From the NCBI GenBank assembly GCA_040876265.1, contig JBBDPN010000002.1:236330-300329 (forward strand): 64,000 bases of DNA, given 5' to 3'. Positions 4,041 through 8,315 of the stretch are shown here, piece by piece. The notes below the pieces were generated by a model. The model did no database searches and was not told the DNA's origin. It worked only from the letters and a program-made list of their open reading frames with translations. The stretch is from Candidatus Woykebacteria bacterium. GTDB lineage: Bacteria; Patescibacteriota; Microgenomatia; Woykebacterales; RBG-16-39-9b. The translations under genes and the position numbers were made by a program. Each line of letters starts with the position of its first letter. The stretch's first letter is position 1.

Positions 4041-4070
4041 TTGACACGACGCATTAAATTGCTCTAGAGT
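4041..4070 (+). promoter_or_regulatory. Candidate sigma70 promoter (TTGACA, 18 nt spacer, TAGAGT) upstream of the TasA-like gene
   Basis: TTGACA at 4041-4046 and TAGAGT at 4065-4070. Located in the AT-rich intergenic region after rpoC. Confidence 0.3.
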
Positions 4071-4168
4071 GTAAGTGAATTCTTCTGCCCGCGTTTAGTT
4101 TTTCTGCCCAAGTAAAAATTAAATTTATATTATGAGCCTGCTGTCTGCTCCGACCTAGAGAAATATTT

Positions 4169-4201
4169 GCTGTACCCAAACAGGGTGCAGCTTTTTGTTT
4201 T
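4169..4201 (+). terminator. Rho-independent terminator-like hairpin (9 bp stem, GCTGTACCC/GGGTGCAGC) followed by TTTTTGTTTTG
   Basis: GC-rich stem plus T-run, about 200 nt downstream of the rpoC stop and about 25 nt upstream of the SD for the next gene. May act as rpoC terminator or attenuator. Confidence 0.45.
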
Positions 4202-4226
4202 GTAAATCTGAGAGGAGGTGAAAAAA

Positions 4227-5063
4227 ATGCTCGAAAGAGTCGATAAAAAGAAAATTATAACCAGTCTCATAACCCTTGTCGCTGCTGGGGCGCTTCTCGT
4301 TGGTGCTACCATCGCCTTCTTCACTGATCAAGAAACTAGCCAAGACAACGTCTTTGCAGCGGGATCGCTGGATCTAAAAGTGGACTATGATTGTTACTAC
4401 AATAAAATAGCCGATGACGACCCAAATTGTCCTTGGGATGATTCTTCGTGGGAAGAAACAGACTTGGGACCACAACACAAATTCTTCAACTTCAACGATA
4501 TTAAACCAGGCGACTTTGGTGAAGGCACTATTAGCCTTCATGTGTACAACAATGATGCCTGGGGAAGATTGGTGATTAGTGATGTTCAAGATCTAGAAAA
4601 TACTTACCTTCAGGCTGAACTAGATGCAGGGGATGCTGGGGTACCTGATGGAGAACTTCGCGAAAATCTCGGTTTCAGAATTTGGTTAGATCAGGGACAA
4701 ACTGTAGGATTTCAAGGCACAGAAGATGAAGGTGAAGGTGACAACATCTGGCAGCAGGGAGATGAACCAGTATTAGTAACCCAAGGTACGGTTGACCTTG
4801 GTGGTGAAACGCACAATATATGGCAGGGTCTTTCAGCTGTTTATGTAGCGGAAAGTTGTACAACAGTCGATGGAAACGCTGGAGGTGATTGTCCTGGTAT
4901 AGCACAAGATGGACGTCTAGTAGGTAGCGTTACTTATTACTTTGGTATTGATTGGGAACTTCCAGACACTGTCGGTAACGAAGTACAGACAGATAGTTTA
5001 AGTGCAGATATGACATTTGAAGTTGTACAGCACAGAAACAACCCTGGCAAAACAGGGTTCTAA
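4227..5063 (+). CDS. TasA/camelysin-like (peptidase M73-like) secreted protein with SipW-cognate signal peptide
   Basis: Strong SD AGAGGAGGTG 7 nt before ATG 4227. N-terminal h-region then GATIAFFTDQETSQDNVFAAGSLDLKV, the A-F-F-[ST]-D-x-E-[TS] SipW-cognate motif, followed by N-x-F-x-AG-x-LDL. Internal NDIKPGD matches the TasA NLKPGD motif. Confidence 0.75.
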   Translation: MLERVDKKKIITSLITLVAAGALLVGATIAFFTDQETSQDNVFAAGSLDLKVDYDCYYNKIADDDPNCPWDDSSWEETDLGPQHKFFNFNDIKPGDFGEGTISLHVYNNDAWGRLVISDVQDLENTYLQAELDAGDAGVPDGELRENLGFRIWLDQGQTVGFQGTEDEGEGDNIWQQGDEPVLVTQGTVDLGGETHNIWQGLSAVYVAESCTTVDGNAGGDCPGIAQDGRLVGSVTYYFGIDWELPDTVGNEVQTDSLSADMTFEVVQHRNNPGKTGF

Positions 5064-5065
5064 AG

Positions 5066-5127
5066 TCCGAGGTTTGGAAACAGTAGGCCCCTTGGTGGAC
5101 CTAAATTTGCCCTAAGGGGCCTCGGAC
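5066..5127 (+). promoter_or_regulatory. GC-rich compound stem-loop between TasA-like gene and sipW
   Basis: GTCCGAGG (5066-5073) pairs with CCTCGGAC (5120-5127). AGGCCCCTT (5085-5093) pairs with AAGGGGCCT (5114-5122). No T-run follows. Candidate intra-operon attenuator or stability element. Confidence 0.35.
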
Positions 5128-6327: not shown

Positions 6328-6331
6328 ATCA

Positions 6332-7375
6332 ATGAAAAAGAAACGAAAGTTGATAAAAATAGCTTCACTTTCCCTGGCGATTGCAGTCGCGGTTTGGGCA
6401 AACGGTGGTTTATCTTTTTCTTTGAACAATACAGCCTATGCAGTTGGTGATCTTTCTATTGACTGGGGAGTACCGAGCGGCGACCCTATCTTTGTGATAA
6501 GTGATTTCAAGCCAGGCGATATGGAAAGTAGACCTGTTTTGGTAACAAACGGTGGGGCTGGTATTCGGCCTGTTGGAGTAAGAGGCGAAAAAACCAGTGA
6601 AATCGGTGAACTTGCGACAGTATTAGACTTTATTATTTCTGAAAATGGAACCGATCTTTACGGTGGTACCAGTGCCACCGGGCCAAAGAGTCTGCAAGAT
6701 TTCTTTGATGAAACAGTTGGTATGAACAGCATCTTTTTGTCGGATCTAGGACCAAGTGATTCAACTGCCTATACTTTTAAGGCTACTTTTGATGAGGCGG
6801 CCGGCAATGAGTTTCAAGAAAACGAGGTTGTTTTTGACATAATCATTGGAATTTCGGTAGAAGTACCGGAAGAATGTGGCGATATTGAATTTGACGGCGA
6901 CCCTATCTTTGGGACGTCCTCAGGCGATAGTATAAATGGAACCAATGGTAACGACTTGATTTTCGGTTTGGAGGGAGGAGATTCTATAAATGGTCGAGGT
7001 GGGGATGATTGCATTGTCGGCGGTGACGAAGGCGATGGGTTGAGAGGAAACAGCGGAAATGATGTTATTTTGGGCGGAGCTGGTGGTGATTCACTCAGGG
7101 GAAACGACGGTAATGATAAGCTTTTTGGCGGTAGTGAGGGTGACAGCCTAAGGGGAGGAAACGGCGAAGATTTACTTGATGGAGGTACTGGTAGCGATAG
7201 CCTGCGGGGTGGAAACGATAATGATGTGCTGTTTGGTAGAGAAGGAGCCGATTCTCTCCGAGGCGGAAATGGAGATGATTATCTGGATGGAGGTCCAGGT
7301 CAAGATGGATTACGTGGAGGTGCCGGTTTCGATACCTGTATAGATGGTGAAAGTGTAAAAGGCTGCGAACCCTAA
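6332..7375 (+). CDS. Secreted protein with TasA-like N-domain and C-terminal RTX-type calcium-binding repeats
   Basis: Sec signal peptide MKKKRKLIKIASLSLAIAVAVWA. ISDFKPGDMESRPVLVTNGG matches the TasA KPGD motif. C-terminal half is tandem GGxGxDxLx nonapeptides (GGAGGDSLRGNDGNDKLFGGSEGDSLRGGNGEDLLDGG...). Confidence 0.8.
   Translation: MKKKRKLIKIASLSLAIAVAVWANGGLSFSLNNTAYAVGDLSIDWGVPSGDPIFVISDFKPGDMESRPVLVTNGGAGIRPVGVRGEKTSEIGELATVLDFIISENGTDLYGGTSATGPKSLQDFFDETVGMNSIFLSDLGPSDSTAYTFKATFDEAAGNEFQENEVVFDIIIGISVEVPEECGDIEFDGDPIFGTSSGDSINGTNGNDLIFGLEGGDSINGRGGDDCIVGGDEGDGLRGNSGNDVILGGAGGDSLRGNDGNDKLFGGSEGDSLRGGNGEDLLDGGTGSDSLRGGNDNDVLFGREGADSLRGGNGDDYLDGGPGQDGLRGGAGFDTCIDGESVKGCEP
6944..7337 (+). 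repeat. Tandem 27/54-nt coding repeats encoding RTX nonapeptide (GGxGxDxLx) units
   Basis: At least 12 consecutive nonapeptide units in the translation. Periodic ggtg(g/a)tga...ctg/ttt DNA pattern. Confidence 0.6.
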
Positions 7376-7384
7376 CACCTGTGG

Positions 7385-7416
7385 TTGACAGGGACGGACC
7401 CTGTCAAACTGTCAAA
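7385..7416 (+). promoter_or_regulatory. Perfect 9-bp inverted repeat TTGACAGGG-N5-CCCTGTCAA followed by tandem CTGTCAAA CTGTCAAA
   Basis: Sits immediately after the RTX gene stop and before the 7455 membrane-protein gene. No T-run, so it looks more like an operator than a terminator. Contains a TTGACA -35-like hexamer. Confidence 0.35.
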
Positions 7417-7454
7417 GGTTGCAATCAAGCCTTTGTTTGTTAATAATATAAATA

Positions 7455-8315
7455 ATGCGGGGTTTGTTAGCAGTACTTGTTTTCCTTTTCTTTGGCCTCA
7501 CCTTTCCCATAGCAGTCTTTACTTACGCTGTTACTACAGTTGTAAACCCTTCCTACGTAAAATCCCAACTTGGGAATTCCGAAATTTATGAAGTAGCCGC
7601 TGATCAGATTCCAAATCTTATTGATAGAGAGGAGGAACACGATGAGAAGCGAGTGAAAGATCCGACCGAAGAGAAGTTTAAAAAAATAATACTTCAGGAA
7701 GTTGACGGAAAATATCTGCAGAGTAAAGTCGAGCCTTTTGTAGACGATACTTTTTCGTGGCTCGCAAGAGAGCGACAAGAGCCACCACAAATTAGTTTTG
7801 CCGATTTAGCGGAAAGAGCTGAAAAATTGGTAAAACAACCACTGCCAACTGATATAGAGAAGACACTCTCCGAGCCCTTTAAACTTGAGCCAGATAATGC
7901 CAACGCAATAAAAGATTGGTACAGATGGTTTACGCTGACACCACTTATCTTTGGTATCATCAGCGTCCTACTTCTAGTGGGGTTGTTTTTATTAGTAAAG
8001 GGATGGAGATCGAGATTGAGAAGAGTAGCGCTAGCTATCTTTCTGCCCACATTTTTTGGGTTTTTGGGGGTTGGTGTGGGTTTGTTCCTGGGAAGGATAC
8101 TCTCTGGTATTGCTAGTGGGTTGGTAGCCGATTCACGCCTGCCCGATTTGCAGGTACCAGTAGAAGAGATAGTTGTGAGTATTTCAGAAGATATAACTAG
8201 AACTTTACTAATTATTTACGCGGTCGCCCTGGTGGTAGCAATTATCCTATTTATTTCCTCGTTTTTTGTAGACAGGGAGTCCAGACTTTCTAAAGAGGCA
8301 GTTGATAAAAAGTAA
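7455..8315 (+). CDS. Hypothetical membrane protein (N-terminal TM, acidic soluble domain, 3 C-terminal TMs)
   Basis: 286 aa ORF with hydrophobic segments. No recognised family. Confidence 0.45.
   Translation: MRGLLAVLVFLFFGLTFPIAVFTYAVTTVVNPSYVKSQLGNSEIYEVAADQIPNLIDREEEHDEKRVKDPTEEKFKKIILQEVDGKYLQSKVEPFVDDTFSWLARERQEPPQISFADLAERAEKLVKQPLPTDIEKTLSEPFKLEPDNANAIKDWYRWFTLTPLIFGIISVLLLVGLFLLVKGWRSRLRRVALAIFLPTFFGFLGVGVGLFLGRILSGIASGLVADSRLPDLQVPVEEIVVSISEDITRTLLIIYAVALVVAIILFISSFFVDRESRLSKEAVDKK

What the first reader, a model, noticed from the sequence alone, without database searches (positions are those of the whole stretch)
4041..8315. TasA/camelysin + SipW + RTX secreted-fibre locus immediately after rpoC in a CPR-like genome
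Four co-directional genes sit behind a strong SD and a candidate promoter. A TasA-like protein (4227-5063) carries the archaeal/Bacillus-type SipW-cognate signal motif (AFFTDQETS). The next gene is a SipW peptidase. The third is a secreted protein sharing the TasA KPGD core and ending in about 12 RTX calcium-binding nonapeptides. The fourth is a multi-TM protein. In Bacillus, tapA-sipW-tasA builds extracellular matrix fibres. An equivalent dedicated-peptidase fibre system with a Ca-binding RTX component has not been characterised in ultra-small Patescibacteria. Surface fibres there could mediate attachment to a host cell. The locus interrupts the normally contiguous rpoBC-rpsL-rpsG-fusA-tuf arrangement.
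Basis: partly seen in the sequence, partly recalled or inferred. Interest (0 to 1): 0.85.

Follow-up and report, generated by a model that had tools for sequence, protein, structure and literature searches.

The report
TasA-type fibre operon, peptidase-cargo fusion
An ultra-small Woykebacteria (CPR) genome carries, right after rpoC, a conserved gene set for TasA-like surface fibres whose dedicated SipW signal peptidase is fused to one of its own substrates; the kind of system is known from Bacillus, but this three-part layout is an undescribed variant found across CPR bacteria.

Summary
Four co-directional genes follow rpoC.

- g2 (5176-6327) is an ER/archaeal-type signal peptidase (TIGR02228, 89.6 bits).
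- g4 (7455-8315) has four TM segments.

In 80 Patescibacteria SipW loci, TasA-like genes lie upstream in 62 of 63 informative cases and a g3-family gene lies downstream in 40 of 61. SipW is fused to a cargo in 27 and immediately followed by a separate SipW-signal gene in 23.

My inferred model is a chaperone-free donor-strand fibre: a donor-only cargo (TapA-like), a TasA-like shaft, and an acceptor-only RTX cap. Polymerisation, cleavage and host attachment are untested.

TasA homologues in Patescibacteria were already noted (Wang 2022), so this is a new variant of a known kind.

The parts
4041..4070 (+). Promoter-like site TTGACA-18-TAGAGT. Weak evidence only.
   Evidence: 10 of 12 matches. 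13 such sites were found in the region against 7.4 +/- 2.7 in shuffles.
4169..4201 (+). GC-rich 9-bp hairpin plus U-run (terminator-like) in the leader, 12 nt before the SD of g1. It is either the rpoBC terminator or an attenuator.
   Evidence: MFE -23.2 kcal/mol, z -3.3, 0 of 200 shuffles as stable. No Rfam match.
4213..4218 (+). Shine-Dalgarno AGGAGG, 8 nt before ATG 4227.
   Evidence: read directly from the sequence.
4227..5063 (+). g1: TasA-like major subunit, 278 aa. Signal peptide residues 1-30 (nt 4227-4316). Predicted cleavage T-I-A30 | F31-F32. Donor-strand motif FFTDQETSQDNVFAAG, residues 31-46 (nt 4317-4364). Jelly-roll body residues 47-278.
5176..6327 (+). g2: SipW-cargo fusion, 383 aa from GTG 5176 (alternative start GTG 5149 gives 392 aa).
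   Evidence: (gene call).
5191..5697 (+). g2 part 1: ER/archaeal-type signal peptidase I domain with TM1 and TM2. Invariant S40-G41-S42-M43, H87, G105-D106-A107-N108 and D112 (383-aa numbering).
   Evidence: TIGR02228 89.6 bits (cut-off 51.85), NF046067 116 bits; invariant columns; hydrophobic segments.
5680..5775 (+). g2 part 2: internal SipW-type signal peptide. Basic loop RKVRRK, h-region (third hydrophobic segment), predicted cleavage T-A-A | F-F.
   Evidence: TIGR04088 19.8 bits (cut-off 19)..
5776..5823 (+). g2 part 3: donor-strand-like motif FFSDTETSTGNIFQAA, the same motif as in g1.
   Evidence: Role inferred from the TasA donor strand, residues 28-38 (PMC9674648).
5824..6324 (+). g2 part 4: cargo domain, a mobile CBM-like beta-sandwich module with no Pfam hit of its own.
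   Evidence: 123 representatives at E <= 1e-3; homologous stretch of P0289 hits PF14683 CBM-like at 31.4 bits (cut-off 27); other Woykebacteria fusions carry LTD or another domain instead.
6332..7375 (+). g3: secreted TasA-fold domain without donor strand, plus RTX beta-roll (347 aa). Signal residues 1-37 (nt 6332-6442, A-Y-A | V-G-D-L). TasA-like domain residues 38 to about 180 (nt 6443-6871). 17 nonapeptides at residues 186-338 (nt 6887-7345). The start lies 4 nt after the g2 stop.
7386..7445 (+). Two hairpins between g3 and g4. The second is followed by UUUGUUUGUU (terminator-like).
   Evidence: z -2.9.
7455..8315 (+). g4: 4-TM membrane protein with a roughly 125-aa loop after TM1. No family hit. 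Lineage-specific neighbour; role in the system is uncertain.
   Evidence: homologue only in L001 and L008; 33% identity to the L008 orthologue.

Best explanation
The locus encodes a self-contained, chaperone- and usher-free kit for extracellular fibres of the TasA/SipW type, assembled by donor-strand complementation.

Shown here:
- g1 is a Sec-exported TasA-fold protein with a SipW-type signal peptide.
- g2 is an intact ER/archaeal-type signal peptidase.
- g3 carries a TasA-fold domain plus a Ca-binding RTX beta-roll.
- The gene order 'TasA-like gene(s), then sipW with a fused or adjacent cargo, then a g3-family gene' is conserved across Patescibacteria.

Inferred:
1. SipW cleaves g1 at T-I-A | F-F. 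It also cleaves its own C-terminal extension at T-A-A | F-F. A general LepB-type peptidase handles aromatic residues just after the cleavage site poorly, which would explain the need for a dedicated peptidase.
2. The strictly conserved segment after the cleavage site (F-F-S/T-D-x-E-T-S-x-x-N-x-F-x-A) is the donor strand, equivalent to TasA residues 28-38.
3. The released g2 cargo has a donor strand but no TasA body. It therefore acts like TapA: it supplies the first strand, nucleates the fibre, and sits at one end with a swappable binding domain (CBM-like here, LTD in relatives).
4. g1 has both strand and groove and forms the shaft.
5. g3 begins exactly at the position after the donor strand, so it can accept a strand but not donate one. 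It caps the other end. Its RTX beta-roll folds in extracellular Ca2+ and would serve as anchor or adhesin.

The fusion keeps the topology consistent: TM1, catalytic domain outside, TM2, basic loop inside, h-region, cargo outside. It also produces peptidase and nucleator 1:1 at the same membrane site.
For: Identity of the parts:
- HMM hits.
- A profile of the g3 N-domain matches the bodies of small SipW-signal TasA-like proteins, starting right after their donor motif. Example: L018 97-696, iE 7.8e-8, profile positions 3-134 on residues 47-184.

Donor-strand logic:
- Residues after the cleavage site are invariant in the g1 family (A30 F32 D34 E36 N41 G46) and nearly invariant in the fusions (F202 T205 S208, N211 invariant, F213).
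- The region has low confidence in the g1 monomer model (residues 30-46, pLDDT below 50).
- 112 of 120 g1 homologues carry the motif. 119 of 120 g3 homologues lack it, and 112 of 120 of those start A-[VIML]-G-[DG]-L.
- In TasA, residues 28-38 are the donor strand, and TapA has a similar N-terminus and nucleates fibres (PMC9674648).
- LepB cannot process the TasA site, which has an aromatic residue at P2' (PMC10269814).

The fusion is real:
- The same junction occurs in most of 48 homologues at 30-66% identity and in 27 of 80 genome loci. 23 of 80 have a separate SipW-signal gene immediately downstream.
- The close relative L008 (rpoC 82% identical) has sipW and the cargo gene unfused with a 4-nt overlap, in the same rpoC...g3-g4-PEBP context.

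Synteny: 62 of 63 loci have a TasA-like gene upstream and 40 of 61 have a g3-family gene downstream.

Catalytic Ser, His and Asp columns are invariant. g2 and g3 are 4 nt apart, consistent with coupled translation.
Against: - No experiment or multimer model shows polymerisation, cleavage of the fusion, or which end of a fibre each protein occupies.
- Sequence-level similarity of the g1 and g3 bodies to solved TasA is undetectable (0 PDB hits; hhalign probability 4.7%), and TM-scores are modest (0.36/0.42). The fold assignment rests on predicted models.
- PF12389 matches only the signal and donor region of g1.
- g3-family genes are missing downstream in 21 of 61 loci, and only 13 of 46 carry RTX repeats, so the cap is not universal.
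- A terminator-like hairpin lies directly before g1, so expression is uncertain.
- g4 has no assigned role.
Confidence: 0.6

Rival explanations
1. The C-terminal domain of g2 is never cleaved off. The internal 'signal' is just a third transmembrane helix, and the CBM-like domain is a permanently tethered accessory domain of the peptidase. It could dock the enzyme to cell-wall polysaccharide, or it could be the membrane anchor to which the fibre is attached through the exposed donor segment.
For: No direct evidence of cleavage exists. TIGR04088 passes its cut-off only narrowly for this segment (19.8 against 19). Hydropathy shows a normal TM-like segment. A covalent membrane tether would solve the anchoring problem in a cell without sortase-type attachment.
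Against: The segment has the same T-x-A | F-F-S-D-T-E-T-S-x-G-N-x-F motif as stand-alone cleavable substrates. In L008 and 23 other loci the equivalent protein is a separate gene with its own N-terminal signal peptide.
Confidence: 0.18
2. The genes encode SipW-dependent secreted or surface proteins that stay monomeric, for example adhesins, matrix proteins or nutrient-binding proteins. They share only an export and processing route and do not form fibres.
For: The bodies of g1 and the cargo are highly variable between relatives (27% identity or unrelated, against 82% for rpoC). The cargo domains are binding-type modules (CBM-like, LTD). Beta-sandwich folds are common.
Against: The best fold matches are specifically filament subunits of the TasA superfamily. 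The residues after the cleavage site are conserved far beyond what signal-peptide cleavage needs. The recurrent trio of donor-only, donor-plus-acceptor and acceptor-only proteins in fixed order is hard to explain without strand exchange.
Confidence: 0.15
3. g1 is a camelysin-type (Peptidase_M73) secreted metalloprotease, and g3 is an RTX toxin or protease exported by a type I system.
For: The names of the matching families: PF12389 'Camelysin metallo-endopeptidase' and NF033943 RTX_toxin, NF035945 serralysin.
Against: g1 has no HExxH motif and g3 contains no histidine at all (sequences). PF12389 matches only the signal region. The RTX toxin and serralysin models score 99.6 against a cut-off of 1000 and 40.5 against 500, through the repeats only. 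g3 has an N-terminal Sec signal and ends 9 residues after the last repeat, so it has no C-terminal T1SS signal.
Confidence: 0.03

Closest known systems
Bacillus subtilis tapA-sipW-tasA operon (TasA fibres, PDB 8AUR; Bohning et al. 2022, PMC9674648; Roske et al. 2023, PMC10151520)
   Same: [quoted passage not shown] The major subunit has the TasA jelly-roll fold. The signal and donor motif (T-x-A | aromatic ... D ... F-A-x-G-x-L-D-L) is shared. A second SipW substrate has a donor-like N-terminus but a different body, as TapA does.
   Different: Gene order differs. SipW is covalently fused to the TapA-like substrate. The cargo domain is unrelated to TapA and is swapped between relatives. A third component exists, a donor-less TasA-fold domain with an RTX beta-roll, which Bacillus lacks. 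The bodies show no detectable sequence similarity to TasA (NF046066 scores 15 against a cut-off of 450).
Archaeal TasA-superfamily filaments: AbpA bundling pili (7UEG), Sulfolobus threads (7PNB), CanX/AbpX of Pyrodictium (9H8B; PMC12518558)
   Different: In those systems calcium sites lie within the subunit rather than in a separate RTX module. No peptidase-substrate fusion or acceptor-only cap has been described. The organisms are archaea, not CPR bacteria.
Chaperone-usher pili (Fim/Pap)
   Same: Polar fibres built by strand complementation, with specialised end subunits. One end subunit lacks the donor extension and carries an extra functional domain (FimH/PapG). Another terminates growth (PapH).
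   Different: There is no homology, no periplasmic chaperone or usher, and the cell is monoderm. The resemblance is an analogy of logic only.
RTX adhesins and S-layer proteins (LapA, RsaA, CyaA RTX blocks)
   Different: Export is by an N-terminal Sec signal rather than a C-terminal T1SS signal. The protein is small (347 aa) and fused to a TasA-fold domain.

Membership tests
TasA / camelysin superfamily (PF12389, TasA fold) | SipW-cognate signal peptide (TIGR04088) | tested here: met
   g1 scores 30.7 bits against a cut-off of 19.
TasA / camelysin superfamily (PF12389, TasA fold) | Pfam PF12389 above the gathering score over the body of the protein | tested here: inconclusive
   35.4 bits against 22.5, but only residues 10-57 (profile 3-49 of 196) match. 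The family profile has no hit among PDB sequences.
TasA / camelysin superfamily (PF12389, TasA fold) | Jelly-roll body structurally similar to TasA | tested here: met
TasA / camelysin superfamily (PF12389, TasA fold) | N-terminal donor strand and polymerisation by strand complementation | not testable with these tools
   The conserved post-cleavage motif is present in g1 and the g2 cargo and absent in g3. Assembly itself needs multimer modelling or experiment.
B. subtilis TasA orthologue (NF046066 equivalog) | Score at or above 450 bits | tested here: not met
   15 bits. g1 is a superfamily member, not an orthologue.
SipW / ER-archaeal-type signal peptidase I (S26B) | TIGR02228 above its cut-off | tested here: met
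   89.6 bits against 51.85.
SipW / ER-archaeal-type signal peptidase I (S26B) | Catalytic Ser (SGS*MEP), His and Asp residues conserved | tested here: met
   S42, H87, D106 and D112 are invariant in 24 fusion proteins. The residue roles come from Sec11/SipW mutagenesis, recalled from established knowledge and not re-read here.
SipW / ER-archaeal-type signal peptidase I (S26B) | B. subtilis SipW equivalog (NF046067, at or above 190 bits) | tested here: not met
   116 bits.
SipW / ER-archaeal-type signal peptidase I (S26B) | Encoded next to its TIGR04088-type substrates | tested here: met
   62 of 63 loci have a TasA-like gene upstream. 50 of 80 have a fused or adjacent substrate downstream.
TapA | Homology to TapA | tested here: not met
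   No NCBIfam or Pfam TapA hit for g2 at E <= 1. The cargo is CBM-like by transitive evidence. Only the functional analogy holds: SipW signal plus donor-like N-terminus.
RTX proteins | Tandem GGxGxDxUx nonapeptides (PF00353) | tested here: met
   73.5 bits against 23. 17 in-register units. Beta-roll in the model.
RTX proteins | C-terminal T1SS secretion signal, or RTX-toxin/serralysin family membership | tested here: not met
   g3 has an N-terminal Sec signal and ends 9 residues after the last repeat. NF033943 scores 99.6 against 1000 and NF035945 scores 40.5 against 500.

The most novel reading that the evidence does not exclude
Patescibacteria widely use a three-part, polar, chaperone-free donor-strand pilus. 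Its initiator or tip adhesin (a donor strand plus a swappable binding domain) is made as a self-cleaving C-terminal extension of the dedicated SipW peptidase. Its terminator or anchor is a donor-less TasA-fold protein that often carries a Ca-dependent RTX roll. This appendage, rather than or in addition to type IV pili, would mediate attachment of many non-Saccharibacteria CPR cells to hosts or surfaces. A signal peptidase fused to its own substrate would be a new biogenesis principle.
Probability: 0.3. Interest if true: 0.8.

Novelty: new variant of a known kind. Interest (0 to 1): 0.6.

Why it matters
CPR/Patescibacteria are thought to live attached to other cells, yet apart from type IV pili little is known about their surface appendages.

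This locus type is very common in them. More than 550 SipW candidates were confirmed in one genome scan. It offers a compact fibre system of three or four genes that can be tested directly in vitro.

Two features could interest people who study pilus biogenesis and protein export:
- a signal peptidase made as one polypeptide with its substrate;
- the division into donor-only, donor-plus-acceptor and acceptor-only subunits.

The rapidly swapped cargo domains (CBM-like, LTD) are candidates for host or surface specificity determinants.

If the fibres turn out not to form, the locus is still a clean example of a dedicated ER-type peptidase regulon in reduced genomes.

Tried and rejected
- Exact look-up of the 392-aa g2 ORF found nothing, because the public gene call starts at 5176. 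P0001 located the source contig instead.
- A profile of the g1 family against PDB sequences gave 0 hits. hhalign of the g3 N-domain against the g1 family aligned only the C-terminal Y-x-F...GNE-x-Q...D motif (probability 4.7%, P 0.0085). The sequence link between g1, g3 and TasA is therefore weak. It was settled by fold search and by the g3-domain profile hitting small TasA-like proteins.
A trimmed set worked.
- The cargo domain has no significant match among PDB sequences and no Pfam hit of its own.
- Rfam found nothing in the leader or the locus.
- Literature searches for SipW with CPR lineage names, and for lamin tail domain with signal peptidase, gave nothing relevant.
- Rejected: the metalloprotease (camelysin) reading, the T1SS RTX toxin reading, and an assembly or frameshift artefact as the origin of the fusion. 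The same junction occurs in 27 independent genomes.

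
Full report
SOURCE AND CONTEXT

The window is from a Candidatus Woykebacteria (Microgenomates, CPR) metagenome-assembled genome. g1 is 100% identical to an NCBI protein named 'MAG: TasA family protein [Candidatus Woykebacteria bacterium]'. The same locus lies on a Logan contig of run SRR27977662, downstream of rpoB and rpoC. 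rpoC ends at 3967. rpsL, rpsG, fusA and tuf begin at 20586, 21083, 21836 and 24065. About 16.6 kb of unrelated genes separates rpoC from rpsL, and the fibre locus is only the first quarter of that stretch. The other genes include a PEBP, a PD-(D/E)XK nuclease, G6PD, 6PGD, an EamA transporter and a heliorhodopsin.

CHECK OF THE OBSERVATION

Four + strand ORFs are present as described.

g1:
- It starts at ATG 4227, eight nt after AGGAGG.
- It scores above the curated cut-offs of TIGR04088 (SipW-cognate signal, 30.7 against 19) and PF12389 (35.4 against 22.5). The Pfam match covers only residues 10-57, which is the signal region.

g2:
- It passes TIGR02228 (archaeal/ER-type signal peptidase I, 89.6 against 51.85).
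- It scores 116 bits on the B. subtilis SipW equivalog model, below that model's cut-off of 190.

g3:
- It passes PF00353 (73.5 bits).
- Residues 186-338 form 17 in-register nonapeptides.

g4 has four hydrophobic segments and no family match.

The promoter-like site at 4041-4070 is real as a pattern, but such patterns are common in this AT-rich region (13 found against 7.4 +/- 2.7 expected). Between it and the SD lies a stable GC-rich hairpin followed by a U-run (4169-4201; z -3.3). Any transcript entering g1 must read through this terminator-like element. No Rfam family matches the leader.

After the peptidase domain and its second transmembrane segment, g2 continues in this order:
- a basic loop (RKVRRK);
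- a third hydrophobic segment;
- the sequence GSTAA-FFSDTETSTGNIFQAA, which passes TIGR04088 on its own (19.8 against 19) and is nearly the same as the motif at the N-terminus of g1 (ATIA-FFTDQETSQDNVFAAG);
- a 167-residue domain.

The topology is self-consistent: N-terminus inside, catalytic domain outside, back inside, then the signal h-region carries the cargo outside.

The fusion is not an assembly artefact. Most of the 48 detectable homologues, at 30-66% identity, share the junction. In 80 SipW loci fetched from one genome per species, 27 have the fusion and 23 have a separate gene with a SipW-type signal immediately downstream of sipW or overlapping it.

The closest informative relative is L008 (rpoC 82% identical, PEBP 70%). 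It has the same context: rpoC, a TasA-like gene, sipW, a cargo gene, the g3 homologue, the g4 homologue and PEBP. There sipW (188 aa) and the cargo gene (204 aa) are separate and overlap by 4 nt. The window's g2 is therefore a gene fusion of two neighbours.

The cargo is modular. Other Woykebacteria fusions carry a lamin-tail domain (PF00932) or another beta domain. The window's cargo domain belongs to a family of about 120 representatives that occurs in many unrelated secreted proteins. Two of those relatives match Pfam CBM-like PF14683 over the homologous stretch (31.4 bits against a cut-off of 27, and 21.3 bits). The window's own copy has no Pfam or PDB sequence hit.

FOLDS

The AlphaFold2 model of g1 (59-sequence alignment, pLDDT 84.7) has the cryo-EM TasA fibre subunit 8aur_A as its best match in two searches:
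- Foldseek: E 5.2e-5, the only hit at E <= 1e-3.

Sequence methods alone do not connect these bodies to TasA. However, a profile of the g3 N-domain matches the bodies of small (about 200 aa) SipW-signal TasA-like proteins in other CPR loci. The matches begin right after their donor motif (best iE 7.8e-8).

SYNTENY

- Of 63 loci with enough upstream sequence, 62 have one to four TasA-like genes upstream of sipW on the same strand.
- Of 61 loci with enough downstream sequence, 40 have a g3-family gene downstream.
- 13 of the 46 downstream g3-family genes found across all 80 loci carry three or more RTX motifs.
- The loci come from many lineages: Microgenomates (Levy-, Curtiss-, Roizman-, Woese-, Davies- and Shapirobacteria), Parcubacteria (Kaiser-, Nomura-, Zambryski-, Campbell- and Moranbacteria), Saccharibacteria, WWE3 and Doudnabacteria.
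- Only three loci have rpoC nearby, so the position after rpoC is specific to this lineage.
- Within the 64-kb window, only g1 and g2 carry the SipW motif.
- Between the window and L008 the surface parts have diverged much faster than housekeeping genes. g3 is 53% identical, SipW 43% and g4 33%. g1 is 27% identical over the N-terminal half only, and the cargo is unrelated beyond its signal. By comparison rpoC is 82% identical.

MECHANISM (INFERENCE)

In B. subtilis, mature TasA starts at A28. Residues 28-38 are the donor strand that completes the sandwich of the next subunit. TapA has a similar N-terminus and supplies the first strand (PMC9674648). SipW is needed because LepB-type enzymes process the TasA site, which has an aromatic residue at P2', very poorly (PMC10269814).

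The CPR proteins fit the same logic:
- The predicted sites T-I-A|F-F (g1) and T-A-A|F-F (g2) put aromatic residues at P1' and P2'.
- The roughly 16 residues after the site are conserved far more than signal cleavage requires (invariant columns).
- They are disordered in the monomer model.

The system then has three classes of subunit:
- The g2 cargo has a strand but no TasA body. It is donor-only and TapA-like.
- g1 has both strand and body.
- g3 starts at A-Y-A|V-G-D-L, the position equivalent to TasA G42. It lacks the strand in 119 of 120 homologues and so would be acceptor-only.

This predicts a polar fibre: cargo, then n copies of g1, then g3. The fusion would deliver the nucleator 1:1 with the peptidase at the site where shaft subunits are cleaved.

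Which end is proximal to the cell is open. The variable binding-type cargo argues for a distal tip, with g3 and its RTX roll as terminator and anchor. The Bacillus view of TapA as the anchor argues for the opposite.

The RTX module cannot be a T1SS signal carrier. g3 has an N-terminal Sec signal and ends 9 residues after the last repeat, with conserved Cys pairs. Ca-dependent folding or binding outside the cell is the likely role. There is a precedent for Ca-driven assembly in the TasA superfamily (CanX, PMC12518558).

I put about 0.85 on 'TasA/SipW-type exported protein system', about 0.6 on fibre formation with the division of labour described, and less on the polarity.

RIVALS

- The cargo may stay tethered, with the signal uncleaved.
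- The proteins may be monomeric secreted binders.
- The protease and toxin readings suggested by the family names are contradicted by the sequences. There is no HExxH motif, g3 has no histidine at all, and scores are far below the family cut-offs.

NOVELTY

TasA, SipW and TapA, and donor-strand exchange in this superfamily, are established. Wang et al. 2022 already list Patescibacteria among phyla with PF12389 homologues (PMC9245690). NCBI names g1 a TasA family protein.

I found no paper in the searchable library that mentions SipW together with CPR lineage names, and none that describes a peptidase-substrate fusion. The donor-less RTX-bearing partner appears in databases only as 'calcium-binding protein' or 'hypothetical'.

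The fair label is a new variant of a known kind. The system is widespread and uncharacterised, and it has two architectural features that are, as far as I could find, undescribed.

Noticed in passing
window 17782-18555 (+): A heliorhodopsin gene (PF18761, 315 bits) lies in the same rpoC-rpsL insert, next to a SAM methyltransferase. It is a light-sensing or retinal protein in an ultra-small CPR genome.
   Followed up: no
window 4169-4201 (+): A strong terminator-like hairpin plus U-run lies between the only promoter-like site and the SD of g1. It is unclear whether g1-g3 are expressed by read-through from rpoBC, by attenuation, or from an unrecognised promoter type.
   Followed up: partly
L008 (DASVHF010000072.1), and many loci titled 'uncultured Gammaproteobacteria/Pseudomonadales' (e.g. 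L005, L007, L012, L025): The record titles disagree with the content. L008 is labelled Candidatus Nanoarchaeia but encodes a bacterial rpoC 82% identical to the window's and has Woykebacteria-like synteny. The 'Gammaproteobacteria' MAGs carry typical CPR SipW/TasA clusters. The taxonomic labels are probably wrong.
   Followed up: partly
window 11024-12709 (+) and 19447-20355 (-): Glucose-6-phosphate dehydrogenase (read from the ORF translation only, not HMM-checked) and a 6-phosphogluconate dehydrogenase (Pfam hits) lie in the same insert between rpoC and rpsL. Together they would form the oxidative pentose-phosphate branch.
   Followed up: no
L040, L043, L061, L068, L070, L079, L054, L056: Some CPR loci carry two sipW paralogues a few hundred bases apart, or two complete small clusters back to back. 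This suggests duplication of the whole kit.
   Followed up: no
L008 5349-5717 (+): In the relative, a 122-aa four-helix-bundle-like ORF sits between rpoC and the TasA-like gene. It resembles proteins encoded in 23S rRNA intervening sequences (judged by eye only). The window has only the 260-nt leader at this position.
   Followed up: no
P0031, P0037, P0041, P0044, P0051 and others (homologues of g1, 430-486 aa): A subgroup of g1 homologues carries an extra C-terminal DUF642 (PF04862) domain. Shaft-type subunits can therefore also carry binding modules.
   Followed up: no
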